From a virus, in the UHGV virus genome UHGV-1970909: a stretch of 31,791 nt of DNA; one strand, given 5' to 3'. This document shows positions 2-29,507 of this stretch, one piece after another (within the stretch, counting starts at the first letter, position 1; the number at the start of each line of letters is the position of its first letter). Below the pieces are notes generated by a model, which was given only the letters and a program-made list of their open reading frames with translations, did not search any database and was not told the origin of the DNA. The translations under genes and the position numbers were made by a program.

Positions 2-55
2 TACCTGCGTGAGCGTACTGGTAAGGCTGCTCGTATCAAAGAGCGTCTTAACTAA
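2..55 (+). CDS. 3' end of a host protein-coding gene (partial; C-terminus ...YLRERTGKAARIKERLN, stop TAA 53-55); identity not recognised
   Basis: Frame-2 open reading frame enters from the window start and ends at TAA 53-55; its last 14 nt are the att core duplicated at the other prophage end; a hairpin terminator follows. Confidence 0.4.
   Translation, partial: YLRERTGKAARIKERLN
42..55. repeat. Left att core copy (AGCGTCTTAACTAA), identical to 31737-31750
   Basis: Exact 14-bp direct repeat (17 bp with one mismatch) at both prophage ends; the left copy forms the last codons and stop of the host ORF. Confidence 0.55.
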
Positions 56-93
56 TACAGCGCTTTCGCAACATCCGAAAGCTTGTAGAAAAC

Positions 94-217: not shown

Positions 218-436
218 TTAAAGCCAGAGTTGATGTTGCTGATATCTGGTGGGGTGGGGCGGTGCCGGTTCAATTTCACCTGGTTTAACGATGAAGCGGG
301 CGAGGGTCTCATGAGTTACAAAAGTGCATCCACAGTTGATGTTTTGGCATTGATGGTAACGTTCTTTTGTTTCAGAGCTTAAGTACCGGCTTGACCGTGC
401 ATGGGCTGCATCCTGACATAACGGACAATGCATCAT
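218..436 (-). CDS. ogr: Ogr-type zinc-finger late-gene transcription activator (72 aa)
   Basis: Translation MMHCPLCQDAAHARSSRY...KERYHQCQNINCGCTF has the C-x2-C...C-x4-C arrangement and strongly resembles the P2 Ogr sequence as I recall it; located at the end of the tail operon as in P2. Confidence 0.92.
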   Translation of the reverse strand: MMHCPLCQDAAHARSSRYLSSETKERYHQCQNINCGCTFVTHETLARFIVKPGEIEPAPPHPTRYQQHQLWL

Positions 437-513: not shown

Positions 514-1677
514 TTAATCCTCATCTTCTTCATACTCAACATCTGTAATTTTGACTTCCAACTCTAAGCCCGTCGTGAAGCCACTCCCGTTAAGGCTATG
601 CACCACACGGCTGACTATCCATGCTTGCTCGTCTATAACGCGCTTAAAGCCCTTCACCGCAACCGGTGTTTCAGGAAATAAATCAGCGCGGCCAGTGGCG
701 AGCGTAATCGAAAATTCCGCCACCCCTCGCTGTATCCTGTCCCACTTCGCCTGAGCTGCGCGCATGGCCTGCACCTTTGTCGCGTAGATGGTCGTGAGTT
801 CCAGAACATTGTCGGACTCACCGGCCATATACTCACCTTCCCGCGCTTCCTGCTCCTTTTTCTTTTTAGCCTTTGCCGATGTTTTGGCGGCCTTCGGGTG
901 CTGCAACGCACGCAGGTGCTGCTCTTTGGGTTTGCGTTTGAGCTTCACCTTTTGCTTTTGCGGTTTTGGGTCTCTGGTGTGCAGCCATTTAGCCGTGACG
1001 CCGGTGTATGCCTCGCGGTCGGCAATGGAAAACTGATGTCGGTCGCCGTCACCGCGCTCGACCGTCATTTGTGGGACAGGCTTGCCACTGGCCGTCATCG
1101 CGCTACCGGCTTTCAGGAATAACAATTTCCCGGCTTTGACCGAAACCGTTGCCCCGTTACGATCCGCCAGCCGGGACAAAAACGCCGCGTCGGATTCCTG
1201 AGACTGGTCGATATGCGGTACAGCAACAGATTTCAGGGTGTCAGCCACGCTGGCCGTCAGTTTGTTACGCTGCGCGATAGCCTCAACAATCACCCCGAGC
1301 CTGGTGTCGTGCCATGACTGTTCCCGGCGCGAGTTCAGCGTCCCGCGAAAATCCGCGCTGCGTCCCCGAATGGTCAGCCTGTCAGGCGCGCCCCGGTGCT
1401 CGATTTCGTCGACCGTGAAACTCCCTTTGTTTATCAGCGCGGAGCCCTGCCAGCCCAGCCACAGTGTCAGCGACGCCCCGCGCGGTGGTAGCTCAACCAG
1501 CCCGTCAGTATCATCAAGCTCAATATCGAGTTGATCAGCCTCAAATCCGCGATTGTCGGTCATGGTCAGCCCGATAAGCCGGTCGCTGAAATTCTGTGTG
1601 ATATCTGCGCCATTGAGCGTGAGCATAAAGCCAGGGGCGATGCACGCACCGGCCTGAATATTCATTCCCGTTATCAT
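514..1677 (-). CDS. D: Tail protein gpD (late control gene D family), 387 aa
   Basis: Position between U and ogr and length match P2 gpD; 4-nt overlap with the upstream gene; basic lysine-rich linker as in gpD homologues. Confidence 0.9.
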   Translation of the reverse strand: MITGMNIQAGACIAPGFMLTLNGADITQNFSDRLIGLTMTDNRGFEADQLDIELDDTDGLVELPPRGASLTLWLGWQGSALINKGSFTVDEIEHRGAPDRLTIRGRSADFRGTLNSRREQSWHDTRLGVIVEAIAQRNKLTASVADTLKSVAVPHIDQSQESDAAFLSRLADRNGATVSVKAGKLLFLKAGSAMTASGKPVPQMTVERGDGDRHQFSIADREAYTGVTAKWLHTRDPKPQKQKVKLKRKPKEQHLRALQHPKAAKTSAKAKKKKEQEAREGEYMAGESDNVLELTTIYATKVQAMRAAQAKWDRIQRGVAEFSITLATGRADLFPETPVAVKGFKRVIDEQAWIVSRVVHSLNGSGFTTGLELEVKITDVEYEEDED

Positions 1678-2151: not shown

Positions 2152-4593
2152 TCAGTCGAGTCTCATACTGGATCGCTGGCGCGCACGTTTCTCGCGGTCA
2201 AGTTTGTCAACGGCGTCACGGAGCTGGCGGTCAAGATCACTGCCCGGCGCGACCCCACCCTGCAGATTGATGTTGTATTCGCTTTTGCTCTGGTCGATAT
2301 AAGACCGGCCTGCGGGTGCTGTAACCAGCTGATACGCCTGATAGCCGCCATAGCCTGCGGTCGCAGGGATATACCCGCCATTCGTGGACGCCTTATCCGC
2401 TTTCGCGGCCGTCTGGTCGAGGTCGCTGGATTCTTTTTTGATAATGCCGAGTTTTTCCAGCAGCCAGCCGACCTTGCCGCTCAGGCTGTTAAACATATTG
2501 AGCGGCAGCATCAGCGCATCAGCCAGCGCCTGACCAAAAGTAACGCCGACATTTTTGCAACTGTTGAGCGTGTCCTGCGTGGCTTTCACCGGCGCAAGCA
2601 GGTCTTTAAACCACTGGCAGACGACACCCAGCTTTTCAGCGATGGCGTCAAACACCGGCGCGAGCGGAGTAAACATGTCCCCCACCGGTGCAAAGGCGGC
2701 TTTCAGTCCCTCCACCACGCCTGAGAAGAATGCACCGAGCGGCTTCCAGTATTTACGGATCAGCAACGCACCGGCCACGACTGCACCGGCTACCGCCAGC
2801 ACCGGCAGGCTGATTGCGCCAATGGCCGTGACAATCGCGCCGCCGACCGTACTGAAAACCACACCGAGTACGCCAGCCGCCGCAATGATGGCATTAATCC
2901 CCATCACCACCGGCCATGCGACAAGGCCAATCCCGCCCATCACACCGATCAGCGCCAGCGCACCCCCGACCACCACGCCGAGAGTGGTCGCCAGCCCCTG
3001 ATTTTTCTGGATCCAGCCGTCGAGCCTGAGCACATATTGCGTGGCTGTCTGCGTCAGCTTACGCAGGGAGCCCTCCTGCTGATCAAACAGGTCAGTCCCG
3101 ACCGCCTCATAGGCTGACTGAAACTCTTTAAAGTCGCCGCCGAGGTTATCCTGCATCACCTTAACCAGTTCCTCAGTCTTACCGTCCGAGGCTTTAAACG
3201 CGGCGGTGAGCTGGTCGAGCTTGCCGCTTGATGCGGCGGCCATCAGAACGGCGGCCGCCGAGCTGGCTTCTTCACCGAAAATGGTTTTCATGTATTCGGC
3301 TTTCTGACCCGTTCCGAGATTGTTTTTCTCAAAACTGCGCTGCATTTCCTTCAGGATGGAAAATATCGGGCGCGTGTTGCCTTTGCTGTCGCTCGTTTTA
3401 ATGCCGAGCTCTTTGATGGCGTCATAGGCTTTACCGGTCGGCGCCTGCAGGCGACTCAGAACGGCACGGCTCCCTGTACCCGCCATCGAGCCGGTGATTT
3501 TGGAATCGTGCAGCGCCCCCACCATTGCGGCGGTTTCTTCGATACTCACCCCGGCATTTTTCGCCACCGGCGCGGCATAGGTCAGCGCATCGCTCATCCC
3601 GTCAAAATCAGCGGCGGTTTTGTTCATCGTCATCGAGAGAACATCGCCAATATGCGCGACTTTATCGTTAGAGAGCTGGAACGCGGATTTCATGCCGGTC
3701 AGCAGCGCGGCGTTTTCTTCCATCGTGCGCTTGTTCGACAGTGCCATGTTCAGCGTGACCGGCGTCGCCGCCTGAATGGCCGCCGCATCGCCGCCGCTTT
3801 TGGCAATGATAATCTGCGCACCCGCCGCATCATCGGCAGAGGCAGCGGTATTGTCACCAAGCTGGCGCGCCTGTTTACGCAGCGCCTGCATTTCGGGCGA
3901 CTGTTTGTCGACACCGAGCACGGCCTGCAGCTCAGAGTTTTTCTGTGCAAATTCATAACCCGGCGTCATCAGCTTAACCCCGGCGAGGGTTCCTGTTGTC
4001 GCAATACCGACACTGGCCGCGCCAGCGGCCGCCATGCTACCGGCAAGCGATTTACCGGCCTGATACCGCTCTTTCACCCGGCTTAACTTCGCCTGTTGTG
4101 CGCTGACTTTCGCCAGTGCCTCACGCTGACGATTGAGCTGCGCGGTGGTCTCACTGATGCGCGATTTAAGTCCCCGCTCATCATTTGCCAGATTACGGGT
4201 ATTAATTCCCGCCGCACCGAGCTCGCGTTGCTGGCGTTTAACAGACTCCGTGAGGCTGTTGTATTTCGTCTGCAGCCCTTCGGCGGCACGCTTCGCGGAT
4301 TCAAGAACCTGCGCCTGCGCGCGCGTCGGGCGCTCGGTGTTTTTAAACTGCGTGGCTAGTGCTTCGGCTTCCTGTTTCGCTTTCTCAAGCGAGTGACCGG
4401 TTACGGCAAGCTGTGCGCTGGCTTTGCGGAATCCGTCAATACGGGACGCCTGCGCGTTAAGTTCGCGCAGGCTTTTCTGTGAATTGCGGATATCACCGGA
4501 CAGGGATTTGCTGGCGTTCTGAATCGCTTTAAGCGGGCGGCTCGCCCGGTCGACGGCGTTCAGCAGCACCTCGATTCTGACGTTATTGCTCAT
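2152..4593 (-). CDS. T: Tail tape-measure protein gpT, 813 aa
   Basis: Long Ala/Gln-rich coiled-coil N-terminus, glycine-rich hydrophobic central segment, position downstream of E/E'. Confidence 0.92.
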   Translation of the reverse strand: MSNNVRIEVLLNAVDRASRPLKAIQNASKSLSGDIRNSQKSLRELNAQASRIDGFRKASAQLAVTGHSLEKAKQEAEALATQFKNTERPTRAQAQVLESAKRAAEGLQTKYNSLTESVKRQQRELGAAGINTRNLANDERGLKSRISETTAQLNRQREALAKVSAQQAKLSRVKERYQAGKSLAGSMAAAGAASVGIATTGTLAGVKLMTPGYEFAQKNSELQAVLGVDKQSPEMQALRKQARQLGDNTAASADDAAGAQIIIAKSGGDAAAIQAATPVTLNMALSNKRTMEENAALLTGMKSAFQLSNDKVAHIGDVLSMTMNKTAADFDGMSDALTYAAPVAKNAGVSIEETAAMVGALHDSKITGSMAGTGSRAVLSRLQAPTGKAYDAIKELGIKTSDSKGNTRPIFSILKEMQRSFEKNNLGTGQKAEYMKTIFGEEASSAAAVLMAAASSGKLDQLTAAFKASDGKTEELVKVMQDNLGGDFKEFQSAYEAVGTDLFDQQEGSLRKLTQTATQYVLRLDGWIQKNQGLATTLGVVVGGALALIGVMGGIGLVAWPVVMGINAIIAAAGVLGVVFSTVGGAIVTAIGAISLPVLAVAGAVVAGALLIRKYWKPLGAFFSGVVEGLKAAFAPVGDMFTPLAPVFDAIAEKLGVVCQWFKDLLAPVKATQDTLNSCKNVGVTFGQALADALMLPLNMFNSLSGKVGWLLEKLGIIKKESSDLDQTAAKADKASTNGGYIPATAGYGGYQAYQLVTAPAGRSYIDQSKSEYNINLQGGVAPGSDLDRQLRDAVDKLDREKRARQRSSMRLD

Positions 4594-5637: not shown

Positions 5638-6831
5638 TTAGCTGTTGACCGAATCCGACAGGTTCGCCAGATAGGTATCGGTGATGCGCTGGCGCAGGGT
5701 CAGGTTTTCCAGCGGCGGGACGGGGGTGTAGTCGTAATCGATATACAGTTTCCCCACTTTCAGGGTCGCGGTGTCGTTCGACTCCGGGTCGTACCAGCAC
5801 AAGCCGTCAACGATATAACCACTGGTTTTCAGCTCGCGGAATTTGGCATTGATACCGGAAACGATGTCACGAATGAGGGTCGGGGTAATGGGTTTATCCA
5901 TCGCCCACGCGTGCGCCTCCGCCATCGTGTCGGCCAGCACCTGCGCGGTGCGGGTGTAGTTCTCAAACAGAAAAAGCGGATCATCCGAGCAGGTACGGTT
6001 TCCCCAGAATTTGAAACCATCATTGCGGATAAGCGTGGTGACACCGGCCTGATTCAGCAGGTTGGCGTCGGTCGCCGGTTCCTGCAAATCCCACGACACC
6101 GAGGCGCTGACGCCGGTCACACCGTTAACACCGACGTTTGACAGGGTTTTATGCCAGCCGACCGTCTGGTCGATTTTGGCACGCAGGCCGAGTGCGCGCG
6201 CCGTCGCCCAGGCTGTTGCTGTCGCGTTCGCCGTGGTGTCCCATGCCAGAAAATCAGGGAAGATGACCATCAGCTCGCGCTGGCTGAAATTCTCGCGGTA
6301 GTTGATGGCATCGGAAATGGTTTTACAGCCCCACGCGCTGATATAGCCAAAGGCGCGCAGGCTCTGACAGGTGGACGCGAGCGCGGTCGCCACTTCCTGC
6401 GAATCCAGCCCCGGCACGCCGAGAATCCGTGGCTTAACGCCGGTGACGGTTTTCGCCGTCAGCAGGGCTTTCAGCCCGGTATATTTGCCGTTTTCGTCGG
6501 TGGTGCCGATGATATTGGAAATGGTTTGTTTGTGCGCCGCCTCGGGGTTCTCCGGGTCTTCAATACCTTCGGCCACACGCACGGCCACGATGACCGGCTT
6601 GCACTGGTCAGCGATAGCCTGCAGGGACGTCGACAGCGTGCCCTGTTTACCGGCTTTACCGATAGCGCTCTGCACGTTCGTAATGAGCACCGGCTCATTG
6701 AGGGGAAATGTTTTTTCGTCAGCATCGCTGGCCGTACAGACCATGCCGATGATGGCCGTTGAAACGGTGGAAATGGTGCGGACGCCATCGTTAATCTCGA
6801 TGACCTGCACGCCGTGATGATAGTCACTCAT
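5638..6831 (-). CDS. FI: Contractile tail sheath protein gpFI, 397 aa
   Basis: Start placed at MSDYHHGVQVIEIN (residue 67 of the six-frame ORF), which resembles the P2 FI N-terminus as I recall it; the upstream 66 codons of the ORF are a spurious 5' extension. Confidence 0.92.
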   Translation of the reverse strand: MSDYHHGVQVIEINDGVRTISTVSTAIIGMVCTASDADEKTFPLNEPVLITNVQSAIGKAGKQGTLSTSLQAIADQCKPVIVAVRVAEGIEDPENPEAAHKQTISNIIGTTDENGKYTGLKALLTAKTVTGVKPRILGVPGLDSQEVATALASTCQSLRAFGYISAWGCKTISDAINYRENFSQRELMVIFPDFLAWDTTANATATAWATARALGLRAKIDQTVGWHKTLSNVGVNGVTGVSASVSWDLQEPATDANLLNQAGVTTLIRNDGFKFWGNRTCSDDPLFLFENYTRTAQVLADTMAEAHAWAMDKPITPTLIRDIVSGINAKFRELKTSGYIVDGLCWYDPESNDTATLKVGKLYIDYDYTPVPPLENLTLRQRITDTYLANLSDSVNS

Positions 6832-7057
6832 CCGTTTAACTCCGTGGTTAAGGGGTGAGTGATATTTTCTGTTGTGTGGCAGGTGCGGGCTATTTGTCAG
6901 GGTTGGATAAGGTCTGACACAACAGCGGTGAATATTCGGGCTGTCACGATATTTGTCAGTTAATTTGGGTAATTTTATGTAATCATATGTTGTGAAAGCG
7001 CATCGGGATGATGCAAAAACATAATGCAATACAGATGATTACTGTTCAGGGCTGGTC

Positions 7058-7642
7058 ATGTTTAAGTACGTTTTAGCACTAAATTTTATTTTTTTTGGCA
7101 ATACACACAACCTGATGAATTACTGGAAAGCGGAGGTTATCAGAAGAGAGAAATTTTCACTGCACCGTCTTTTAAGAGAGAAAAAACACCGGGGCAGAAA
7201 TTTTATTTTTTGGTGGCGCCTGGCAAATGAAATGTATTTGAATGGTGGGAAAATACACAAAAAAGCAGCAAAGCAAATCAATGCTCACCTGATGGAAAAA
7301 TTTGGCTGCGAAATATCACTTGGTGCAAATATTGGCAAAGGAATAAAAATTCCACATCATCATGGAATTGTCATTCATCATTTGGTAGACATAGGTGAAA
7401 ACTTAGTCATACGCCAAAACACAACAATCGGTCAAAAAGACAGCGATGGTAAATCCTTCAAATTGCACATTGGGGATAATGTTGATATTGGTGCAAACAC
7501 ATGTATTGTTGGCCTGAATCATACAATTGGAAATAATGTGAAAATTGGAGCGATGTCATTCGTTAACTGTGACATCCCGGATGATTGTACGCTTGTTACG
7601 ACTAAAACGACCCGATTCATTAGCCATAACAACATATCATAA
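7058..7642 (+). CDS. Cargo gene: left-handed beta-helix (hexapeptide-repeat) acetyl/acyltransferase, CysE/WcaB-like, 194 aa
   Basis: Translation contains tandem hexapeptide repeats (IGANIGKGIKIP..., IGENLVIRQNTTIGQKD, IGDNVDIGANTCIVGLNHTIGNNVKIGAMSFV); AT-rich; opposite strand to flanking tail genes; sits at the P2 Z/fun position between G and FI. Exact start uncertain. Confidence 0.7.
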   Translation: MFKYVLALNFIFFGNTHNLMNYWKAEVIRREKFSLHRLLREKKHRGRNFIFWWRLANEMYLNGGKIHKKAAKQINAHLMEKFGCEISLGANIGKGIKIPHHHGIVIHHLVDIGENLVIRQNTTIGQKDSDGKSFKLHIGDNVDIGANTCIVGLNHTIGNNVKIGAMSFVNCDIPDDCTLVTTKTTRFISHNNIS

Positions 7643-8271: not shown

Positions 8272-9965
8272 CAGGCAAGCCTCACGATATAGTTGAATGC
8301 GATGTTTTTGACGGTGTTTTCAGCGTTACCGGCTGCATTAACAGTGATGTTATGTCCGTGAGCCCCTATTGCCACAGTATGACTGTGTGCACCAATACCG
8401 ACATTATGGTTGTGGGCTCCGATGGCTACGGTATGGGCGTGAGCTCCGGCAGAACCTGTTGCCGTGGACGTATATTGAGTTGCCAGGCGTCCGGATGTTA
8501 GCGGCACTTTTCCGCCCTGGTTAGCACCATCTGACGTGGGTATCGGATGCGTGTGCGCCCCTGTGTTATTGGTGGTTTTCGTCCCGTAATCAAAGGTCGT
8601 GGTGGTTTTCGTTCCGTGGTCAAAAGCACTGGTGGTTTTCGTCCCTAAATCGGTGCTCGATGCGCTGGCACCGTGGGCGTGCGATTTAATCCCATCCTGC
8701 TCCTGAGACAAAATTGCGCGCCCACTTGCGGGTTTACCTTTGATTGTCCAGCCCCGCATATCAGGAATAACTCCCGACGGATACACCACAGCAAGCAGCG
8801 GATACGCGGCTTTATCAAAAGTTTGTCCCTGCATGACGGCATAGCCAGCGGGAACACTGTCAGACGGCCACGCAACGGGAGCGCCTACCGGAAAAACATC
8901 ATCAGGCGTCCACGGTGTCCATGCGCCTGTTGAATACTGGCTGCGCGAGTAGCTCCGGGAGCTGTTATAAACCCGGTATACCTGAGTCACTCCGGCATTT
9001 TTATAAATGACCAGCGTCCCGGCGTTATTTTCAGGGTAATGTCTGGCGGCTGAGGTATTGGCGTTCGCTGGCTGAAAGTAAATACCCGGCGTTTTAAGGG
9101 TGTCTAAATCCTCCGTTACCAGCCCAATAGCCTGACCGTCGAAAATATCCTTCGAGGTGACACTGGTGTCAGCATTCAGGGAATGTCCGTTAATTTTACG
9201 CGTGGAGGGAACGCGGCCATTAGCATTATCATTCGCCACTTTGACCGCTTTCGGTGTCGCAGCAAGCACCTCAGACACGCTGTCGGTGGCGCTACTGAGC
9301 TGGACAATCCCCTTCTGTGCCGTGGTCGCGTCCTGAGCCGTATATTTACCTTTCGCAAGGTCATACGCCACCTTGACCGCTTTCGGCGTTGCGGCGAGCG
9401 CCTCAGACGTGCTGTCGGTCGCACTGCTTAACTGCGTGAACCCTTTTTCTTTCAGCGTGGCGTCAGGATGGCGACGGGACTGCTCATGCTCTGCGAGTTT
9501 ATCGTCGACATAATCCTGCGTCGCCATCACCAGTGTCGTATCGATGGACAGCTCGACGGTGTCGATATCGCTCACCATGATCACCATGCGCAGCGTCTGT
9601 GCGCGGCCTGACCCTTCCGCCAGTTCGGGCTTATAACTTTCGGCCATATTGCCGACCGCAATCAGCGTGCCGGTGTCATCGTAAAGCCCCATTTCACGCA
9701 GCCAGAAACCGCCGGTCTCCGGGGGGATCACCAGCTCCGCCACGACATAATTTTTATGTTTTTTGTCCAGGCTGATTTTGTTCAGCGCATGGCGCCAGAC
9801 CTCATTGACGAGTTTTGTCTGACTGGCGTCTGGTTCGGGCAGCTTACCGCCACCGTCCCCGACGGCCATCACCGCAAAATTGACTTTTTTCCCGTTCGGG
9901 AGCGTCGCCGCCGCCAGTTTTTCCGCACCGGCTCGGGTGATAACGGTTTTATATTTCACTGTCAT
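8271..9965 (-). CDS. H: Tail fibre protein gpH, 564 aa, with internal repeats and a His-rich C-terminal tip
   Basis: N-terminus [40 protein letters not shown] is typical of P2-family H; duplicated [22 protein letters not shown] segment; C-terminal HGTKTT and GAHxH repeats. Confidence 0.9.
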
Positions 9966-9976: not shown

Positions 9977-10507
9977 TTATCCGGGGTAAACCGTGATGAT
10001 GTCGCCGTCGTAGGTCAGGGCTCCGGTGAAGAGATAACCCGGGATGTCCTGAATAATATTCAGGCCGATAAGATGGCGACTGGCTGGCTTTGCATCGGCA
10101 ATAAGCCTTTCCATTTCGTAATACATTTCCTCGGTGATGCCGGTCTTCAGCACGCCGATATCAAGGCGAAACGTGCCCGGCGGGTCGTTCGTCTCCCACC
10201 ACTCCGTCACGTTAATCAGATACCCGAGCGGCTCGACCACACGACGCACCGCGCCTATCGTCCCTTTATGCGCATGGATAAACCACGCGCTGCGGATAAC
10301 CTCGCGTTTGGTTTCTTCCGGCCAGCTCTCATCCCAGCGATCAACCGAAAACGCCCAGGCCAGCCACGGCAGCAGATTTGCGGGGCAGTTGTCAGGGTTC
10401 CAGAGGTGACGCAGCGGGACAGGGGTATTTTCGATATCCGCGCAGGCGCGCGCCGCCGCCACCTCAAGCGGCGACGAGCCCACCGGCAGCAAACGGTTAT
10501 CACTCAT
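9977..10507 (-). CDS. I: Baseplate protein gpI, 176 aa
   Basis: Synteny J-I-H and size as P2 gpI. Confidence 0.88.
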
Positions 10508-11413: not shown

Positions 11414-11764
11414 TTAACTCAGTGGAAGGGTGATAGAAAAAGGCTGGCCTGATGCCGAACGCGTGCCGGTCATATCGACGTACATCGCGCCGTCATCCTC
11501 TCCGCGTTCAAAGGTGATGGTCGACAAACTGACGCGCGGTTCCCACTTCTGGATCGCGGAGTAGCACGCGGCCATAATCTGCAGACGCAGCGCCGGGGTC
11601 TGCGGCTGGTCAATCAGTGCAGACAACAGCGAGCCATATTCGCGGCGCATGACCCGCGATCCCACCGGCGTGACCAGAATGTCGCGCACGCTTTGCCTGA
11701 TGTGCTCAACCTCAGAAATACTGAGGCCGGTCTGGCTGTTCATTCCCAGATAACGCACCGTCAT
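11414..11764 (-). CDS. W: Baseplate protein gpW, 116 aa
   Basis: Synteny V-W-J and size as P2 gpW. Confidence 0.9.
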   Translation of the reverse strand: MTVRYLGMNSQTGLSISEVEHIRQSVRDILVTPVGSRVMRREYGSLLSALIDQPQTPALRLQIMAACYSAIQKWEPRVSLSTITFERGEDDGAMYVDMTGTRSASGQPFSITLPLS

Positions 11765-12402
11765 TTGACCCCCTTCGTCCAGTTTCCGCCTGGCTCCACG
11801 CCACCATGATCGTGGTCATCGACCTGCACGCCATTTGAGGTAAATTTCCCGCCGGTGTGCTCGATGTTCCCCGACATCGTCCCGCCTTTTTTCACTTCGA
11901 GCGTGCCGGTTGTCAGCTTGTTGGTACACACCACCTCGGGTGTATCGAGGGTGATGCGGGTGGATGCCTTAACCAGTACCAGCGGCACGGTGGCAGTAAT
12001 GGACTCTGATGCAATGACGTCGGCAGTTTTAATACCGGACACGGTGAGCGCCCCGTTTTCGGGTTCGTACTCAATAACCGCCCCGTCAGGAAACGAGACA
12101 TGCAGGGCATCGGGTGAGGCAGACGGCGCGGGATGGTCATCAGAGAAAATACCAGGCAGCACAAAGGCAGTGTCGAGTTCGCCCCCAATGGCAAGAATGA
12201 GCACCTGCTCGCCAACGGAAGGAGCCCACCACACCCGTGAGCGACCGGCGCGACAGGTCAGCCAGTTAAGCCACGTGGTTTGCATCCCTCCGGTCTGCAC
12301 ACGACAAAGCCCCTCAACGGGTTCAACGTCTGTCACAACGCCGGTGCGGATAAGGTTGCGGATCGCACGAGCGATTTCCTGCAGAGAAGTTAAATTGTTC
12401 AT
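11761..12402 (-). CDS. V: Baseplate spike/hub protein gpV, 213 aa
   Basis: Start placed at MNNLTSLQEIARAI (residue 35 of the six-frame ORF), giving a P2-V-sized product; ATGA overlap with W. Confidence 0.88.
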   Translation of the reverse strand: MNNLTSLQEIARAIRNLIRTGVVTDVEPVEGLCRVQTGGMQTTWLNWLTCRAGRSRVWWAPSVGEQVLILAIGGELDTAFVLPGIFSDDHPAPSASPDALHVSFPDGAVIEYEPENGALTVSGIKTADVIASESITATVPLVLVKASTRITLDTPEVVCTNKLTTGTLEVKKGGTMSGNIEHTGGKFTSNGVQVDDHDHGGVEPGGNWTKGVK

Positions 12403-12789
12403 GGGGAAAGGATGCCGCCGGGGAGGGGCAGCAGCAATCGAGCGGGGTTTTATGAGGGATGAAACAACAAACGGCAACTCAGACTTGTCATTACAGACCA
12501 ACACCTCCTTTGAGGGGCTGATTGAAACCTAGTCGAACATCCAGCGTTGTTCCTTAGCTGCGTGACAATGTTTTTGAACACAGTATTGGCCAAAGCTGAG
12601 CCGAAATTGGCATCCTACGAAAAATTCGATTTCTCTAGCCAGTAGTTCGATTTTAGATTTTGTATTACCTTACTCAATGAGTTTTTGGTCAGATTTTTAA
12701 CACACTCAACGCCAAAAGCGGGCGCTCACGTAAACATATCCATTTTTGCTTGAGACATATTTACTATTACAGTGAGCAGTTTATCTGTT

Positions 12790-12833: not shown

Positions 12834-13820
12834 TTATGGATTTGACTTACCTGAAGTCTCTTTTTTTATTTCAAATTTCCCACCCTTGAACATGATATTC
12901 GAATCTTTGATTCCATACAAAAGCATTTCATAAGGATGGTTAATTTTTTGTTCTTTTGTAGCGATACTGGAATTCATCAATTGCAACAAAGCCACATGAT
13001 GTTCACTCGCCCCTAACTCTACCATTTTGGTAGCCATGTTGCTTATCTGTTCTCGTTTTAAAAAATCTTCCCGGAGAGAAAGTAACGTTAAACTTCGTGC
13101 GTTACAAAACTTTATCATGTAAACAACAAACGCACCTAACCCAATATAGGAAAACGATAATGCTAAATAAATAGACGGTGTGGTTATTATGTTTTGCCCA
13201 AATATAAGAAAACCCAGCAGGCCAAAAAAATAAAAAACATTCACCAAAATAAACATGTTACTCATCAGAGCCTTTGTACTTCGAGTTGCATCATATTCTT
13301 TCTCCAGATGCTCCAAAAATGATGATATTTTTATTAAATTTAACTTTTCAATTGTTTCCTTCTCTAAAATCTTGAATTGCTCACTCTCTCTAATTAATTT
13401 TTTGGTAGTGTCCTCCACTGTATCATGCAATGATTCAGTGATCGCCTCTTCAATTTTATTTTCAGAAAACACGCTTGTTAAAGCGTAATTGGCTAATTCC
13501 TTTTGTCTTTTCTCGATTAAACTTTCGACATTTTCTCTGTACGCATCAAAATATTTTTGACCACTCTCGTTTAGCAATATTTTACGAATATGAAATTTTA
13601 TTTTCTCATCTGCCATTGGTTGGCTTTCAGTGTTACCATTCTTCTTTGTGTTATTATCTTTAGTTTCCGCATTATACCTGTCCTTGCCTGAATCAAGTAA
13701 GTTCCGTGAAATGAATTTCACCACAGGACCACGCAGAATAGCTATAGCTATTGCCATTGCAAGAATGAATGGTGAAGCATCAATAAATGATCGCGCAAAT
13801 ACGAAAGAGATTTCACTCAT
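12834..13820 (-). CDS. Cargo gene: predicted integral membrane protein with coiled-coil region (about 329 aa), function unknown
   Basis: AT-rich ORF in the gap between V and S (P2 orf30 position). Hydrophobic helices at FILAMAIAIAIL and FILVNVFYFFGLLGFLIFG...IYLALSFSYIGLGAFVVYMI, with a long charged K/E-rich middle. Start chosen at MSEISF (ATG with GGGAA 6 nt upstream); the six-frame ORF begins at an upstream TTG. Confidence 0.7.
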   Translation of the reverse strand: MSEISFVFARSFIDASPFILAMAIAIAILRGPVVKFISRNLLDSGKDRYNAETKDNNTKKNGNTESQPMADEKIKFHIRKILLNESGQKYFDAYRENVESLIEKRQKELANYALTSVFSENKIEEAITESLHDTVEDTTKKLIRESEQFKILEKETIEKLNLIKISSFLEHLEKEYDATRSTKALMSNMFILVNVFYFFGLLGFLIFGQNIITTPSIYLALSFSYIGLGAFVVYMIKFCNARSLTLLSLREDFLKREQISNMATKMVELGASEHHVALLQLMNSSIATKEQKINHPYEMLLYGIKDSNIMFKGGKFEIKKETSGKSNP

Positions 13821-14133
13821 AAACATTTCCCTATCTAAAATCAAAGAGTTTACTTTTACCCATATTTTCTACTGACTGAACCAGTTTGACAAGAGAGATA
13901 AGCATCTTTAATATCGATTTTGCCCATTAGGCATGAAAATAAAAAATACCACATGAAATCAATATCATACAATGACCACGCGTTGACCTCATCCATAACC
14001 AATAAATTATCTGATCATGAAATTCTTGATATGCATTGCAGAATTCGATTTCCACCATTTCGCTTTTAGATGTTCATCAAATATCAACACCCCACTATCA
14101 GTAGTTGACAGATCAACTCGTAGCTAATTCAAA

Positions 14134-17065: not shown

Positions 17066-17821
17066 TTAACCTGCGGCTTTTGCCGCTTTCGGGGGACGCC
17101 CGCGCCGTGCCGCCGGTTTAGCGACAGGTTTGCGCGTGCGCGGTTTATTCTGTTTTGGTGCGGGTTCTGGTTTGGGTTTCAGCGCGCGTTCAAGCTGCTC
17201 AATATCCTTTTTCACACCGATAGCCCGCTCTAACTGGATCGCACGCTGCAGGTGCGCCAGCGCGTCAGTCAGGTTGCCAGCATCACGCAGCACGTAGCCG
17301 GTGATTTTGTGCAGCTTCGCACGCACGATATCGGGCATGTCTGCGCGTTCGGTCAGAGTGATGGTGTCGAGCAGGAGCGACAGCCCGACAGGCTGTTTTG
17401 CATCAAGCAGGCGCTGTGCTGACAGTGCGACCTCTTCGGCCAGTAAATACGGCGTTGTGCGGCGGTGGCCGCCGGTCGGCATGGTCAGGCCATACGTCAT
17501 CGCGTAACGGGCGATCTCCAGCGCACCGGCGATATCATCAGCATCAAGACGCCAGAGCATGACGGTCATGACAATGTCATCCTGCGCCCCTTTGCCGGAG
17601 CTGAGAACACCACCCACCCACGGCAGATAAAACGGCAACAGCTCGCGCTTTTTGTCTGCCTTGCGCTCGTTGGAGCGGATTTGTTTTAACGTGCGACAGT
17701 CTGCGGCCAGCTTGACGAGCATCTGCTCATAGGCAGTTGCATTACGCAGCGGAGCAGCAGCCCGCCGCGCAGTTTCAGAGGCCGAGACCCGCATCATGTG
17801 ACGCGCTGCGGGACTCGTCAT
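17066..17821 (-). CDS. M: Terminase small (endonuclease) subunit gpM, 251 aa
   Basis: Synteny N-M-L; basic C-terminal tail; size as P2 gpM. Confidence 0.9.
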   Translation of the reverse strand: MTSPAARHMMRVSASETARRAAAPLRNATAYEQMLVKLAADCRTLKQIRSNERKADKKRELLPFYLPWVGGVLSSGKGAQDDIVMTVMLWRLDADDIAGALEIARYAMTYGLTMPTGGHRRTTPYLLAEEVALSAQRLLDAKQPVGLSLLLDTITLTERADMPDIVRAKLHKITGYVLRDAGNLTDALAHLQRAIQLERAIGVKKDIEQLERALKPKPEPAPKQNKPRTRKPVAKPAARRGRPPKAAKAAG

Positions 17822-18952: not shown

Positions 18953-19807
18953 TCAGCAGTTGGTCAGCAGCTCGTCGCCCGTTCCGCCTTTCGACTTCTC
19001 GCGGCGCGGCTGGCGATGGCTTTCGGTGTTATCGAGGGAGTTTTTCAGGGCGTTAAACGCCTGCGAGCTTTGCGTGGTCTGACTGGTCACGTCCTGCTTT
19101 AGCTGGGCAAAGGCGGTTTCCAGTTCAGTGACGCGCGTTTCGGTGGCGGTCAGGTTGGTTTGCACCTGCTCAGAGACGGCTGTCACCGCTTCATGCACAT
19201 CAGCAAGGCGCGCATCGTCACTGACCTGTTTGCGGCTGAAAATCGATTTAACCTTGTCGGTCAGGCTGTTGAGCATGGTGTCGGGGACGTCTTCAAATTC
19301 CAGCTCAGCAAGGGAAGCCACCGAGAAGAGATCGCCTGGCTGGTCTTTTTTACCGGCGAGCGGGTTCTGACTGGCGCGGCTGCAGAATTCCAGGTATTCC
19401 GTGCCGAGGCTTGCCGGGTCATCAGTGACGGCGAGGCCAATCAGATAGCATTTGCCGCTGTTGGAAAAATTCGGGCGAATTTCCATCGAGGTGTAAACCT
19501 TCTGACCGGCGCGCACCATGCTGACCAGCTCATCAAGCGGGGCAATTCTGGCAAACAGCGCCTTTTTACCGTTCAGCGCAGAGTCATCGCTGATGACTTC
19601 GGCTTTGACTTCCGTCACGTCGCCATAACGCTTAAACGGACTGTCAGGCCAGAGGCTTTTGATGTGTTCGAGGTTAATGCGGCAACCGTAGACACGCGGG
19701 TCGAAGGAATCCGCCATTTCCTGAATGTCATCACCGCTGATGACACGGCCATCGCAGGTGTCACCCTCGACGCCGATGCGAAACCATTTAGAAACTTTCT
19801 TTGCCAT
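18953..19807 (-). CDS. O: Capsid scaffolding protein gpO, 284 aa
   Basis: Same length as P2 gpO; first gene of the O-N-M-L operon, divergent from P. Confidence 0.92.
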   Translation of the reverse strand: MAKKVSKWFRIGVEGDTCDGRVISGDDIQEMADSFDPRVYGCRINLEHIKSLWPDSPFKRYGDVTEVKAEVISDDSALNGKKALFARIAPLDELVSMVRAGQKVYTSMEIRPNFSNSGKCYLIGLAVTDDPASLGTEYLEFCSRASQNPLAGKKDQPGDLFSVASLAELEFEDVPDTMLNSLTDKVKSIFSRKQVSDDARLADVHEAVTAVSEQVQTNLTATETRVTELETAFAQLKQDVTSQTTQSSQAFNALKNSLDNTESHRQPRREKSKGGTGDELLTNC

Positions 19808-19973
19808 TGTTCAGGTGTCCTGATGTTGGGTTTTCGGTTCGGGGGTAGTTTCCCGACTCCGCCCCACATCAGCCACCGCTTGCGGAAGTGCAACCCCTGA
19901 CACAACAGGGGGTTAGCGATAATACCCGGCTATTTCCTTAGCCTTGCCCCGTATTCACCAGTACGAGGCAACC
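19808..19973. promoter_or_regulatory. Divergent late promoter region (O operon leftward, P-Q rightward) with candidate activator dyad
   Basis: 166-bp intergenic region between divergent O and P; contains the 12-mer CTGACACAACAG (19897-19908) within an imperfect dyad AACCCCTG...CAGGGGGTT; the identical 12-mer lies upstream of FI. Confidence 0.5.
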
Positions 19974-21743
19974 ATGACCATTTCGACTGACCTCTCCCTT
20001 TTGCATGACCCTAGACGACAGGCGCGTCTGTTGTTCTGGCAGGGATTTTCCGTACCACAAATCGCCGACACGCTGCAGGTTAAGCGCCCGACCGTGCAGA
20101 GCTGGAAACAGCGCGACGGGTGGGAGGAAACCGCGCCACTTAACCGCGTGGAAACGACGCTCGAGGCGCGCCTGATTCAGCTTTATGCAAAGCCTGACCT
20201 GACGCCGCATGACTTCAAGGTCGCTGATTTTCTGTCACGCCAGATGGAGCGATTCGCACGCATCAACCGCTACGGTCAGACCGGAAACGAGGTGGATTTA
20301 AACCCCAATATTGCCAGCCGTAACAAGGGCGATCGCCGTAAGCCAAAACGTAATTTTTTCAGCGATGAGGCCATCGAAAAGCTGGAGGAGATTTTCTTCG
20401 ATCAGTCTTTTGAGTATCAGCTCAACTGGCACAAGGCCGGTATCGCGCACCGCATTCGCCACATCCTCAAATCACGCCAGATTGGCGCGACGTTCTACTT
20501 TGCCCGTGAGTCATTGCTGCGCGCCCTCAAAACCGGGCAAAACCAGATATTCTTATCGGCCAGTAAGACGCAGGCTTACGTGTTCCGAAAATACATCATC
20601 GCCTTTGCGCGCATGGTTGACGTCGACCTGTCAGGCGACCCGATTGTCATCGGCAATAACGGCGCAGAGCTGATTTTCCTCGGGACAAACTCAAACACCG
20701 CGCAGAGCCACAACGGCGACCTGTACGTCGATGAAATCTTCTGGATCCCCAACTTTCAGAGGCTGCGCAAAGTCGCCTCGGGGATGGCGTCACAGTCCCA
20801 CCTGCGCACCACCTACTTTTCAACCCCTTCGACGCTGGCGCACGGCGCGTATCCGTTCTGGTCAGGTGAGCTGTTTAACCGGGGACGCAGCAGCGCGAGT
20901 GAGCGCGTCGACATCGACATCAGTCACAAGGCGCTCGCCGGTGGCGTGCTGTGCGATGACGGCCAGTGGCGGCAGATTGTCACCATCGAGGACGCCCTCG
21001 CCGGGGGATGCACCCTGTTTAATCTGGATCAACTGAAACAGGAAAACAGCGCCGACGATTTCCGCAACCTCTTCATGTGCGAGTTTGTCGACGACAAGGC
21101 GTCGGTATTCCCGTTCGAGGAGCTGCAGCGCTGCATGGTCGATGCGATGGAAGAATGGGAAGACTTTGCGCCGTTCTCTGACCGTCCGTTTAACTGGCGC
21201 CCGGTCTGGATTGGCTATGACCCGTCGCACACCGGCGACAGTGCAGGCTGTGCGGTACTGGCTCCGCCGCTGGTTGCCGGTGGCAAGTTCCGCATCCTTG
21301 AGCGTCACCAGTGGAAAGGGATGGATTTTGCAACGCAGGCCGAGGCTATCCGCGAGCTGACAGAGAAATATTGCGTCGAGTATATCGGCATCGATGCAAC
21401 CGGCATCGGCCAGGGGGTGTACCAGCTCGTGCGCTCCTTCTTTCCGGCAGCCCGCGCCATTCACTACACGCCTGAAATGAAAACCGCAATGGTGCTGAAA
21501 GCGAAAGACACCATCCGTCGCGGATGCCTGGAATATGACGCCGGTGCAACCGACATCACACAGTCGTTTATGGCTATTCGTAAAACCATGACCAGCAGCG
21601 GGCGTAGCGCCACCTATGAAGCCAGCCGCAGTGAGGAAGCCAGCCACGCGGATATCGCATGGGCGACCATGCACGCCCTGTTAAACGAGCCGCTTTCCGC
21701 CGGTAGCGGGATGCAATCAACCTCAATTCTGGATATTAACTAA
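19974..21743 (+). CDS. P: Terminase large (ATPase) subunit gpP, 589 aa
   Basis: Start at the second Met (MTISTDLSLL) gives the P2 gpP length; divergent from O as in P2. Confidence 0.93.
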   Translation: MTISTDLSLLHDPRRQARLLFWQGFSVPQIADTLQVKRPTVQSWKQRDGWEETAPLNRVETTLEARLIQLYAKPDLTPHDFKVADFLSRQMERFARINRYGQTGNEVDLNPNIASRNKGDRRKPKRNFFSDEAIEKLEEIFFDQSFEYQLNWHKAGIAHRIRHILKSRQIGATFYFARESLLRALKTGQNQIFLSASKTQAYVFRKYIIAFARMVDVDLSGDPIVIGNNGAELIFLGTNSNTAQSHNGDLYVDEIFWIPNFQRLRKVASGMASQSHLRTTYFSTPSTLAHGAYPFWSGELFNRGRSSASERVDIDISHKALAGGVLCDDGQWRQIVTIEDALAGGCTLFNLDQLKQENSADDFRNLFMCEFVDDKASVFPFEELQRCMVDAMEEWEDFAPFSDRPFNWRPVWIGYDPSHTGDSAGCAVLAPPLVAGGKFRILERHQWKGMDFATQAEAIRELTEKYCVEYIGIDATGIGQGVYQLVRSFFPAARAIHYTPEMKTAMVLKAKDTIRRGCLEYDAGATDITQSFMAIRKTMTSSGRSATYEASRSEEASHADIAWATMHALLNEPLSAGSGMQSTSILDIN

Positions 21744-21744
21744 G

Positions 21745-22761
21745 ATGAAAAAACACCAAAAGAAAACCGCCAACATGACCGCCAGCGCACCGCAAAAAAT
21801 GGAGGCGTTCACCTTTGGTGAGCCTTCCCCCGTTCTGGATCGCCGCGACATCCTCGACTATGTCGAGTGCATCAATAACGGGAAATGGTACGAGCCGCCG
21901 GTCAACTTCTCGGGGCTGGCAAAAAGCCTGCGCGCCGCCGTCCATCACAGTTCCCCGATTTACGTGAAACGTAACATTCTGGCGAGCACCTACATTCCGC
22001 ACCCGTTGCTGTCACGTCAGGATTTCAGCCGCCTTGTGCTTGATTATCTGGTGTTTGCCAACGGCTATCTTGAAAAGCGCATGAGCGTCACCGGCCAGCT
22101 ATTAAAACTGGAAACCTCCCCGGCCAAATACACGCGGCGCGGTGTCGAGGATGGTGTTTACTGGTATGTATCGAGCTACACCCACCCGCACCCGTTCGCC
22201 CCCGGTTCGGTGTGTCATCTGCTTGAGCCCGATATCAATCAGGAGCTATACGGAATGCCGGAATACCTGAGCGCACTCAATTCAGCCTGGCTGAATGAAT
22301 CCGCCACCCTGTTTCGTCGCAAGTATTACCAGAACGGAGCACACGCGGGGTACATCATGTACGTCACCGACGCTGCGCAAAGCAGCACCGACGTTGAATC
22401 GCTCCGCAACGCGATGCGTGACTCGAAAGGGCTGGGGAATTTTAAGAACCTGTTTTTCTATGCGCCCAACGGGAAACCGGACGGGATCAAGATTGTGCCG
22501 TTGAGTGAAGTCGCCACGAAAGATGATTTTTTCAATATCAAAAAGGTGAGCGCCGCCGACCTGCTCGATGCGCACCGCGTGCCATTTCAGCTGATGGGCG
22601 GCAAGCCTGAAAACATCGGCTCAATGGGGGATGTCGAGAAGGTGGCGCGGGTGTTTGTGCGTAACGAACTGACACCGCTGCAAGAGCGTTTCAAAGAGAT
22701 TAACGACTGGCTGGGAATGGAGGTGATCCGCTTTAAAGATTACAGCCTCGAATCAGAATAA
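21745..22761 (+). CDS. Q: Portal (capsid vertex) protein gpQ, 338 aa
   Basis: Directly follows P and ends about 170 bp before cos, as in P2. Confidence 0.93.
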   Translation: MKKHQKKTANMTASAPQKMEAFTFGEPSPVLDRRDILDYVECINNGKWYEPPVNFSGLAKSLRAAVHHSSPIYVKRNILASTYIPHPLLSRQDFSRLVLDYLVFANGYLEKRMSVTGQLLKLETSPAKYTRRGVEDGVYWYVSSYTHPHPFAPGSVCHLLEPDINQELYGMPEYLSALNSAWLNESATLFRRKYYQNGAHAGYIMYVTDAAQSSTDVESLRNAMRDSKGLGNFKNLFFYAPNGKPDGIKIVPLSEVATKDDFFNIKKVSAADLLDAHRVPFQLMGGKPENIGSMGDVEKVARVFVRNELTPLQERFKEINDWLGMEVIRFKDYSLESE

Positions 22762-28539: not shown

Positions 28540-28574
28540 GTATTTTTCCTCGCTATCTTAAATAATCGAGTTGC

Positions 28575-28799: not shown

Positions 28800-28864
28800 A
28801 AGTAATCATCTCCGGTTATTAGTTGGTTTGGTGCATTGGCGTGCATTTTTAAATTCAAGTGAGA

Positions 28865-28892
28865 ATCTTATCTCGAAAATGCGAGATGTCAA
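28865..28892 (-). promoter_or_regulatory. Candidate lytic promoter pR (minus-strand -35 TTGACA, 16-bp spacer, -10 TAAGAT) with palindromic operator in the spacer
   Basis: Minus strand TTGACA (28887-28892) and TAAGAT (28865-28870); perfect inverted repeat ATCTCG-N6-CGAGAT (28870-28887) lies between them; about 60 bp upstream of apl. Confidence 0.5.
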
Positions 28893-29503: not shown

Positions 29504-29507
29504 TGAT

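What the first reader, a model, noticed from the sequence alone, without database searches (positions are those of the whole stretch)
6869..6925. Shared 12-mer CTGACACAACAG and nested dyads upstream of FI and O: candidate late-promoter activator sites
The identical 12-mer lies at 6914-6925 (about 85-95 bp upstream of the FI ATG) and at 19897-19908 (about 90-100 bp upstream of the O ATG). In the FI region it is part of nested inverted repeats (CTGTTGTG ... TGTCAG-N13-CTGACA-CAACAG). P2 late promoters are activated by Ogr through a dyad upstream of the -10. I could not find an exact TGT-N12-ACA match by eye, so the precise operator is unresolved; the V upstream region (12440-12510) has related ACAACA/TGTCA elements in a different order.
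Basis: seen in the sequence. Interest (0 to 1): 0.45.

Follow-up and report, generated by a model that had tools for sequence, protein, structure and literature searches.

The report
Ogr-type late promoter activator sites
The shared 12-mer is the strong half of the already well-known binding site through which the small zinc-finger activator (Ogr/B family) of P2-like phages switches on the late genes; this is an ordinary instance of it in a P2/186-like prophage.

Summary
The window is a P2/186-like prophage in reverse gene order, with an Ogr/Delta zinc-finger activator gene at 218-436(-).

Read in the sense of FI and O, the 12-mer is CTGTTGTGTCAG. The same 12-mer sits inside the site that the P2 record annotates as 'activator binding site; pO, pP promoters'. 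The FI copy aligns base for base with the annotated pF site of P2 and the B-protein site of 186 pJ (16 of 20 identical).

It is GTTGTG-N12-CAAC (TGT-N12-CCA, as in P2) at 6902-6923, about 56 bp upstream of the predicted start. The O copy is one site shared by the divergent pO and pP promoters, 55.5 bp from each predicted start. A third site (12447-12468) serves pV.

Among relatives:
- The 12-mer is exact upstream of O in 54 of 76 loci and in P2.
- It is exact in 0 of 77 loci upstream of FI, where only GTTGT(G) and CCAAC are conserved.
- The inner dyad is not conserved.
- The outer arm is a separate conserved block next to the pF -10.

This is a known element; interest is low.

The parts
6914..6925 (-). 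12-mer copy 1. It reads CTGTTGTGTCAG in FI sense, at -69..-58 of the predicted pF start. It covers the promoter-distal half-site (GTTGTG) plus 2 nt upstream and 4 nt of spacer.
   Evidence: It aligns with P2's annotated pF activator site.
6902..6923 (-). pF activator-binding dyad: GTTGTGTCAGACCTTATCCAAC (GTTG-N14-CAAC, equivalent to TGT-N12-CCA). Its centre is about -56.5.
   Evidence: The first 20 nt are 16/20 identical to the annotated B-protein site of 186 pJ, GTTGTGCCAGACATCATCCA. It is orthologous to P2 17555-17583. GTTGT is present in 67/67 and GTTGT-N14-AAC in 62/67 distinct pF sequences. These are the highest-information columns of the alignment.
6869..6877 (-). It reads ACACAACAG in FI sense, at -21..-13, directly next to the -10. 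It is an inverted copy of the distal half-site, and its role is unproven.
   Evidence: CACAACAGAAAAT is present in 42/67 distinct pF sequences. P2 has GCGCAACTGAAAATA and 186 lacks the block.
6863..6868 (-). Predicted pF -10 hexamer AAAATA. The predicted start is at about 6856.
   Evidence: Alignment to P2, whose F-operon start is annotated at 17626-17628 behind AAAATA. This is inferred, not measured.
19897..19908 (-). 12-mer copy 2. It reads CTGTTGTGTCAG in O sense, at -68..-57 of predicted pO and -54..-43 of predicted pP.
   Evidence: The identical 12-mer lies at P2 3059-3070, inside the annotated pO/pP activator site. It is exact in 54/76 related loci, about 101 nt upstream of the O ATG.
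19885..19906 (.). Shared pO/pP activator site: GTTGTGTCAGGGGTTGCACTTC in O sense (TGT-N12-ACT). It has a strong left half and a weak right half. Its centre, 19895.5, lies 55.5 nt from both predicted starts.
   Evidence: Orthology to P2 3057-3087 and to 186 3798-3817, both annotated as serving two divergent promoters. Geometry.
19847..19852 (-). Predicted pO -10 hexamer GAAACT. The predicted start is at about 19840.
   Evidence: Alignment to P2's annotated start at 3127. The block GTCGGGAAACTA is conserved in relatives.
19939..19944 (+). Predicted pP -10 hexamer TAGCCT. The predicted start is at about 19951.
   Evidence: Alignment to P2's annotated start at 3016.
12447..12468 (-). pV activator site: GTTGTTTCATCCCTCATAAAAC (GTTG-N14-AAAC). 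Its centre is 55.5 nt upstream of the V ATG at 12402.
   Evidence: Conserved GTTGT...CA-AAAAC block in 77 distinct V-upstream sequences. Corresponds in position to P2 10239-10266. TGTTGT-N14-AAC matches only here and at pF in the whole window, with 0.2 expected.
218..436 (-). Gene for the late activator, an Ogr/B homologue of 72 aa with a C4 zinc finger.
   Evidence: PF04606 Ogr_Delta, E 3.5e-21. It has the CX2CX22CX4C motif. It is 51/72 identical to 186 B and 43/72 to P2 Ogr.
5638..6831 (-). FI (tail sheath), first gene of the F operon driven by pF.
   Evidence: tblastn, 81% identity to P2 FI.
18953..19807 (-). O (head scaffold), first gene of the O operon driven by pO.
   Evidence: tblastn, 70% identity to P2 O.
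19974..21743 (+). P (large terminase), first gene of the P-Q operon driven by pP.
   Evidence: tblastn, 83% identity to P2 P.
11761..12402 (-). V (baseplate), first gene of the V operon driven by pV.
   Evidence: tblastn, 73% identity to P2 V.

Best explanation
The two 12-mer copies are the strong half, plus a few flanking bases, of the binding sites for the prophage's own Ogr/B-family zinc-finger activator, encoded at 218-436.

Each site is a roughly 22-bp imperfect hyphenated dyad that starts with GTTGT(G). It is centred about 55-57 bp upstream of a late transcription start.

There are three such sites:
- 6902-6923 for pF.
- 19885-19906, shared by the divergent pO and pP.
- 12447-12468 for pV.

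The late promoters have a -10-like hexamer but no usable -35. [quoted passage not shown] This switches on head, tail and lysis genes late in infection.

What is shown here: sequence, position, orthology to annotated sites, conservation, and presence of the activator gene.

What is inferred: the transcription starts (transferred from P2 by alignment), binding, and the alpha-contact mechanism.

The full 12/12 identity between the two promoters has three components:
- An invariant 6-bp core (GTTGTG).
- A semi-conserved Y-CAG extension, also seen in 186 pJ and P2 pO.
- Two 5' bases (CT) that, at pF, lie outside the conserved promoter block and probably match by chance.
For: 1. Gene map. The window is collinear with P2 in reverse order and includes ogr, D...FI, V, O, P and Q. 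The activator has the Ogr_Delta domain and zinc-finger motif.

2. P2 annotation. The P2 record annotates activator sites at pF, pV and a shared pO/pP site. The pO/pP site contains the identical 12-mer CTGTTGTGTCAG.

3. 186 annotation. The 186 record annotates B-protein sites that start with GTTGTG and end with CCA. The window's pF site is 16/20 identical to the 186 pJ site.

4. Conservation at pF. In 67 distinct FI-upstream sequences, information peaks at GTTGTG and CCAAC, then again at the -10 block, while the spacer and the -45..-22 stretch vary. Homology between relatives upstream of FI begins at the GTTGTG, about 92 nt before the ATG.

5. Conservation at pO and pV. The 12-mer is exact in 54/76 O-upstream loci at a fixed position. 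GTTGT is the only strongly conserved block in the variable DNA upstream of V.

6. Geometry. With starts transferred from P2, the dyads lie at -67..-46 (pF) and -66..-45 (pO, pP, pV). The shared site is equidistant from pO and pP.

7. Specificity. TGTTGT-N14-AAC occurs only at pF and pV in the window (2 matches, 0.2 expected). A weight matrix built from O-side relatives ranks the pF site second in the whole window (20.0 bits, next hit 3.1). A matrix built from F and V relatives ranks the O/P site third.

8. Promoter type. No sigma-70 consensus promoter is found at the predicted late promoters.

9. Literature. Ogr binds conserved inverted repeats centred at about -55 and must contact the alpha subunit (PMC3152322). 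TGT-N12-ACA is the consensus of the four P2 late promoters (PMC3931495).
Against: - No binding or transcription data exist for this element. The transcription starts are inferred by alignment only.
- The promoter-proximal half of the O/P site is weak here (CTTC against CAAC; TGT-N12-ACT). It differs between groups of relatives, so the exact extent of that site is uncertain.
- Within this genome alone the motif has little statistical power. TGTTGT is the only 6-mer common to the three regions, and one shared 6-mer is expected by chance (P = 0.36).
- The F+V weight matrix separates the O/P site only marginally from background (9.6 against 9.0 bits).
- The relatives sampled are fairly close (85-99% protein identity), so part of the conservation is simply shared ancestry.
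Confidence: 0.9

Rival explanations
1. The shared 12-mer is a chance coincidence with no function of its own.
For: - Exact 12-mer repeats are plentiful in the window: 124 repeated 12-mers, and dozens are expected by chance.
- The exact 12-mer is absent from the FI-upstream region of all 77 relatives.
- The flanks of the two copies share nothing further.
- The first two bases at pF lie outside the conserved promoter block.
Against: - Both copies sit in late-promoter DNA, in the same orientation, within 1 bp of the same predicted position (-69..-58 and -68..-57).
- Both coincide with sites annotated as activator-binding in P2 and 186.
- The 6-bp core is nearly invariant.
- Chance can account for only the outermost 2-4 of the 12 bases.
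Confidence: 0.04
2. The nested inverted repeats are the functional unit. They would act either as a larger operator bound at both arms, or as a DNA cruciform or RNA hairpin. Candidates are the 9-nt outer pair and 6-nt inner pair at pF, and the CCCCTG/CAGGGG palindrome around the O/P copy.
For: - The 9-nt perfect inverted repeat is somewhat unusual: 3.4% of simulated regions reach it.
- Both of its arms are conserved in many relatives (GTTGTG far upstream, CACAACAG next to the -10 in 42/67).
- A 6-bp palindrome does flank the O/P half-site.
Against: - The inner TGTCAG-N13-CTGACA dyad is present in only 7/67 distinct pF sequences.
- 186 pJ lacks the CACAACAG block and P2 has only GCAACTG.
- The O/P palindrome decays without compensating changes in relatives and is absent from P2.
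- The O/P site and the upstream pF arms lie upstream of the predicted starts, so they are not transcribed into RNA by these promoters.
- pO, pP and pV show no matching element at -21..-13, although each has its own conserved block there.
Confidence: 0.1
3. The sequences are bound by a different regulator, for example the 186-type CI repressor, CII or a host factor, rather than by the Ogr/B-type activator.
For: The prophage has a 186-type CI and CII. In 186, CI controls late expression indirectly by repressing pB (annotation).
Against: - In the 186 record the CI and CII sites are annotated elsewhere (at pR, pL, pB and pE).
- The sites that start with GTTGTG are annotated as B-protein sites.
- The same holds for P2, which has a different repressor but the same 12-mer at pO/pP.
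Confidence: 0.02

Closest known systems
Bacteriophage P2 late promoters pF, pO/pP and pV with their Ogr (and P4 Delta) activator-binding sites, as annotated in NC_001895
   Same: - Same operons and same gene order.
- Same arrangement of three sites for four promoters, with one site shared by the divergent pO and pP.
- The identical 12-mer CTGTTGTGTCAG is in the pO/pP site.
- The pF site has the same TGT-N12-CCA form and the same spacing to GACAAATAGCC and to the AAAATA -10.
- Sites are centred at -55 to -58.

   Different: - The activator is only 60% identical to Ogr.
- The proximal half of the O/P site differs (CTTC against CATC).
- The pV region downstream of the site is unrelated to P2's.
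- The block next to the pF -10 reads ACACAACAG instead of GCGCAACTG.
- The DNA upstream of pF is a different moron (a transferase-like gene instead of fun(Z)).
Coliphage 186 B-protein binding sites at pJ and at pV/p12, as annotated in NC_001317
   Same: - The sites begin with GTTGTG and end with CCA.
- The window's pF site is 16/20 identical to the pJ site.
- A shared site lies between the divergent head promoters.
- The activator is 71% identical to B.
- The immunity region is also 186-type (CI, CII).

   Different: - 186 pV/p12 reads GTTGTGTGGG, so the 12-mer is not kept.
- 186 pJ lacks the CACAACAG block next to the -10.
- The 186 record annotates no site for its V homologue (orf32).
Satellite phage P4 Delta-dependent promoters (Psid, PLL)
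   Same: They belong to the same activator family and the same class of -55 site. I recall this from the literature (Julien and Calendar 1995, cited); the paper could not be opened here.
   Different: Delta is a covalent double of the Ogr domain. From memory only, and not verified here, Psid has a second Delta site near -18. No P4-type genes are present in the window.

Membership tests
Ogr/B/Delta-dependent late promoters of P2-like phages | An Ogr/Delta-family C4 zinc-finger activator is encoded by the same element. | tested here: met
   218-436(-): PF04606, E 3.5e-21. CX2CX22CX4C motif. 71% identical to 186 B and 60% to P2 Ogr.
Ogr/B/Delta-dependent late promoters of P2-like phages | The site lies upstream of the first gene of a late (head, tail or lysis) operon orthologous to P2 F, O, P or V. 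| tested here: met
   tblastn map of P2 proteins on the window. The sites lie 46-101 nt upstream of the FI, O, P and V start codons.
Ogr/B/Delta-dependent late promoters of P2-like phages | The sequence is orthologous to sites annotated as activator-binding in reference phages. | tested here: met
   P2 3057-3087 contains the same 12-mer. P2 17555-17583 and 186 14091-14110 align with window 6902-6925.
Ogr/B/Delta-dependent late promoters of P2-like phages | A hyphenated dyad of the TGT-N12-ACA type. | tested here: inconclusive
   None of the three sites matches exactly: pF is TGT-N12-CCA, pO/pP is TGT-N12-ACT and pV is TGT-N12-AAA. P2's own annotated sites are equally inexact (CCA, CCA, CAA). 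The GTTG-N14-CAAC dyad is clear at pF and partial at pV (AAAC). The proximal half is weak at pO/pP (CTTC).
Ogr/B/Delta-dependent late promoters of P2-like phages | The site is centred about 55 bp upstream of the transcription start. | tested here: met
   Centres are at -56.5 (pF) and -55.5 (pO, pP, pV), using starts transferred from P2's annotated starts through the conserved -10 blocks. The starts themselves were not measured.
Ogr/B/Delta-dependent late promoters of P2-like phages | A weak core promoter: -10-like hexamer, no -35 consensus. | tested here: met
   The sigma-70 consensus scan finds nothing at the predicted pF, pO or pP positions. The -10 hexamers AAAATA, GAAACT and TAGCCT are the same hexamers as in P2.
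Ogr/B/Delta-dependent late promoters of P2-like phages | The activator binds the site, and transcription depends on it and on contact with the RNA polymerase alpha C-terminal domain. | not testable with these tools
   This needs footprinting, reporter assays and an rpoA mutant host. The mechanism is known for P2 (PMC3152322).

The most novel reading that the evidence does not exclude
The conserved block ACACAACAG at -21..-13 of pF (6869-6877) is a perfect inverted copy of the distal half-site. It could be a second, promoter-proximal contact for the activator. In that case pF in this clade would be tuned, either damped at high activator levels or boosted, by a third half-site three helical turns from the proximal CCAAC, rather than the block being just part of the core promoter.
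Probability: 0.12. Interest if true: 0.35.

Novelty: already known. Interest (0 to 1): 0.1.

Why it matters
It matters little beyond annotation. The result places the four late promoters and the three activator sites of this prophage precisely. It explains why no exact TGT-N12-ACA could be found, since the reference sites are themselves inexact. It also shows which bases are actually constrained: GTTGT(G) and, at pF, CCAAC.

The sites could be used to annotate late promoters in the many uncharacterised P2/186-like prophages of enterobacteria.

The only open point is the conserved half-site-like block next to the pF -10.

Tried and rejected
1. TGTTGT is the only 6-mer common to the FI, V and O upstream regions, but one shared 6-mer is expected by chance (P = 0.36). 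The comparison with relatives was what resolved the site.

2. Exact TGT-N12-ACA. It is absent here and also absent from P2's annotated sites.

3. Hairpin or palindrome at the O/P copy (CCCCTG-N6-CAGGGG). It is not conserved and shows no compensating changes. Rejected as a functional unit.

4. A further TGTTGTG at 6988-6994(+), 64-70 nt upstream of the transferase-like gene, considered as a possible fourth activator site. It has no matching second half, and the only relative carrying that gene has TGTTGCG. Probably chance.

5. The sigma-70-like match at 6959..6931(-) upstream of pF. It is at chance level: 1 found, 0.9 expected.

6. Gene conversion between pF and pO as the source of the identity. 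The flanks of the two 12-mers share nothing.

7. Primary papers (Julien and Calendar 1995; Van Bokkelen 1991; Pountney 1997) are not in the library. Statements about them rest on citing papers, the GenBank annotations or memory, and are marked as such.

Full report
**Observation.** The 12-mer CTGACACAACAG occurs exactly twice in the window, at 6914-6925 and 19897-19908, both on the + strand. The outer pair is CTGTTGTGT 6869-6877 / ACACAACAG 6917-6925, 9 nt and perfect. The inner pair is TGTCAG 6895-6900 / CTGACA 6914-6919.

An exact 12-mer repeat is not in itself remarkable. The window contains 124 repeated 12-mers, and first-order Markov simulations give about 44 pairs. What is remarkable is where the two copies lie. 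A 9-nt inverted repeat within 60 nt was reached in 3.4% of simulated regions of this size. Six-nt repeats are common.

**Context.** tblastn with all P2 proteins shows a P2-like prophage in reverse order:

| Gene | Window coordinates (tblastn match) |
|---|---|
| ogr | 221-436(-) |
| D | 544-1677(-) |
| FI | 5641-6831(-) |
| V | 11800-12402(-) |
| O | 18956-19807(-) |
| P | 19974-21731(+) |
| Q | 21742-22758(+) |
| A | 25217-27073(-) |
| int | 29508-30515(+) |

The closest isolated phage in the phage collection is Enterobacter phage ENT4, at 85% identity over 68% of the first 25 kb. FI and O are both on the - strand, so in gene sense the 12-mer reads CTGTTGTGTCAG. It lies 83-94 nt upstream of the FI ATG and 90-101 nt upstream of the O ATG.

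**The activator.** The 72-aa product of 218-436(-) matches Pfam Ogr_Delta (E 3.5e-21). It has the CX2CX22CX4C zinc-finger pattern. It is 51/72 identical to 186 B and 43/72 to P2 Ogr.

**Comparison with annotated reference phages.** The P2 record annotates 'activator binding site' features at pF (17555-17583), pV (10239-10266) and a single site for both pO and pP (3057-3087). It also annotates the transcription starts.

The pO/pP site reads TGCTGTTGTGTCAGTGATAAGCCATCCGGGA, so it contains the very same 12-mer.

The window's FI-upstream DNA aligns without gaps to P2's pF region:
- Window: GCTGTTGTGTCAGACCTTATCCAACCCTGACAAATAGCC
- P2: GTGGTTGTGCTGTCGATTAGCCAACCGGGACAAATAGCC

The 186 record annotates B-protein sites GTTGTGCCAGACATCATCCA (pJ, the FI homologue) and GTTGTGTGGGCGGTTGTCCA (shared by the divergent pV and p12). 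The window's pF site GTTGTGTCAGACCTTATCCA is 16/20 identical to the pJ site.

All these reference sites are TGT-N12-CCA (CAA at P2 pV), not TGT-N12-ACA.

**Conservation in relatives.** I fetched up to 80 related loci each for O, FI and V from viral contigs and aligned the distinct upstream sequences together with P2.

- *Upstream of FI (67 distinct sequences).* Information content peaks at GTTGTG and at CCAAC, 12 nt further on. It falls to near zero from about -45 to -22, then rises again over ACACAACAGAAAATA and the leader. GTTGT is in 67/67, GTTGT-N14-AAC in 62/67 and CACAACAGAAAAT in 42/67. The exact 12-mer is in none of the 77 FI-upstream loci. The nearest are CTGTTGTGCCAG, CGGTTGTGTCAG and TCGTTGTGTCAG. 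Homology between relatives upstream of FI starts about 92 nt before the ATG, at the GTTGTG. Beyond that point the DNA is variable cargo.
- *Upstream of O.* The 12-mer is exact in 54/76 loci, about 101 nt upstream of the O ATG. Most of the rest differ at one base (GTTGTA).
- *Upstream of V (77 distinct sequences).* The only strongly conserved block in otherwise unrelated DNA is GTTGT, followed 10-11 nt later by CA-AAAAC. This places the window's pV site at 12447-12468, GTTGTTTCATCCCTCATAAAAC.

**Geometry.** I transferred P2's annotated starts through the conserved -10 blocks.

| Promoter | -10 hexamer | Predicted start | Dyad position |
|---|---|---|---|
| pF | AAAATA | ~6856 | -67..-46 |
| pO | GAAACT | ~19840 | -66..-45 |
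| pP | TAGCCT | ~19951 | -66..-45 |
| pV | not conserved with P2 (window: CATCCT at -12..-7) | ~12402 | -66..-45 |

For pV the start was not transferred through a -10 block. It was placed 55.5 nt downstream of the dyad centre, which falls on the A of the V ATG, just as P2 annotates its pV start on the V ATG.

The 12-mer occupies -69..-58 at pF and -68..-57 at pO. The shared O/P dyad is exactly equidistant (55.5 nt) from the two divergent starts, as in P2 (-55 and -56). A sigma-70 consensus scan finds no promoter at any predicted late-promoter position, as expected for activator-dependent promoters without a -35.

**Specificity.**
- TGTTGT-N14-AAC matches only the pF and pV sites in the whole window (2 matches, 0.2 expected).
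- A weight matrix built only from O-side relatives ranks the pF site second in the window (20.0 bits; next hit 3.1).
- A matrix built from F- and V-side relatives ranks the O/P site third, but only just above background (9.6 against 9.0 bits).
- Motif discovery confined to this genome is underpowered. TGTTGT is the sole 6-mer shared by the three regions, and that is not significant on its own.

**Interpretation.** The 12-mer is the promoter-distal strong half (GTTGTG) of the Ogr/B-type activator site, plus two bases upstream and four bases of spacer.

The identity of the two copies has three layers:
- An invariant core.
- A Y-CAG extension, which also appears in 186 pJ and P2 pO but not in P2 pF or 186 pV/p12.
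- The 5' CT, which at pF lies outside the conserved block and most likely matches by chance.

The mechanism follows from what is known for P2. [quoted passage not shown] The consensus is TGT-N12-ACA (PMC3931495). Binding, dependence on the activator and the starts themselves are inferred here, not shown.

**What remains unexplained.** The proximal half of the O/P site is weak in this lineage (CTTC) and differs between groups of relatives.

The block ACACAACAG at -21..-13 of pF is an exact inverted copy of the distal half-site and is conserved in most relatives. However, 186 lacks it. pO, pP and pV each have their own, different, conserved block in the same position. It is therefore most simply part of the pF core promoter. 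From memory, and not verified here, P4 Psid has a second Delta site near -18. A second activator contact therefore cannot be excluded, and I give it about 12%.

**Verdict.** This is a correct rediscovery of a textbook regulatory element in a new P2/186-like prophage. Novelty: already known. Interest: low.

Noticed in passing
window 39-76 and 31734-31771; also 133-180 and 31620-31645: A direct repeat lies near both ends of the window, with core AGCGTCTTAACTAA. At the left end the core coincides with the end of an open reading frame that runs in from outside the window (...RIKERLN-stop). Repeated ATGTCCAC(G) motifs lie just inside both ends. These look like attL and attR with integrase arm-type sites, so the prophage spans almost the whole window. 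No tRNA gene is present.
   Followed up: partly
window 28030-30536: The immunity and integration region is 186-type, not P2-type. CI repressor is at 28859-29503 (PF07022 and PF16452), CII at 28030-28539 (PF06892), and integrase at 29508-30536. In 186, CI represses the promoter of B, so the activator gene here may be under direct repressor control. This was not examined.
   Followed up: no
window 7058-7642 (+): A 194-aa ORF is transcribed divergently from FI, in AT-rich DNA at the position of P2 fun(Z). Its only hits are weak, below-threshold matches to hexapeptide-repeat (transferase-like) families. It is probably cargo. Among the 80 FI-upstream loci, its upstream DNA is found only in L083.
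   Followed up: partly
window 6988-6994 (+): A further TGTTGTG lies 64-70 nt upstream of the ATG of the transferase-like ORF. It has no second half-site, and L083 has TGTTGCG at this position. Probably chance.
   Followed up: yes
window 12834-13844 (-), 23195-24460 (+), 30596-31600 (+): Three further cargo-like ORFs. A 336-aa ORF with no Pfam match lies between S and V, where P2 has orf30. A 421-aa ORF with no Pfam match lies downstream of Q. A 334-aa trypsin-like peptidase (PF13365, E 5e-16) lies between int and the right end.
   Followed up: no
window 12402 (V start codon): Placing the pV start 55.5 nt from the dyad centre puts it on the A of the V ATG. The P2 record likewise annotates its pV start on the V ATG. 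This suggests a leaderless or nearly leaderless V mRNA. GGCATCCTTTCCCCATG is highly conserved in relatives.
   Followed up: partly
window 8570-8645 (-), in the tail fibre gene H: Three copies of a 30-nt period repeat (TGGTGGTTTTCGT...) lie inside the H gene.
   Followed up: no
window 19892-19914: The O/P half-site is framed by a 6-bp palindrome, CCCCTG-ACACAA-CAGGGG, with an alternative register AACCCC/GGGGTT. Close relatives share it, but it decays without compensating changes in others and is absent from P2.
   Followed up: yes
L084-L162 (FI-upstream loci of relatives): In most relatives a terminator-like hairpin (GCCCTCCAC-CCGGAGGGC followed by a run of T) ends within about 10 nt of the GTTGTG of pF. 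The end of the preceding operon therefore abuts the activator site. In the window and in L083 this is replaced by the transferase-like cargo region.
   Followed up: partly
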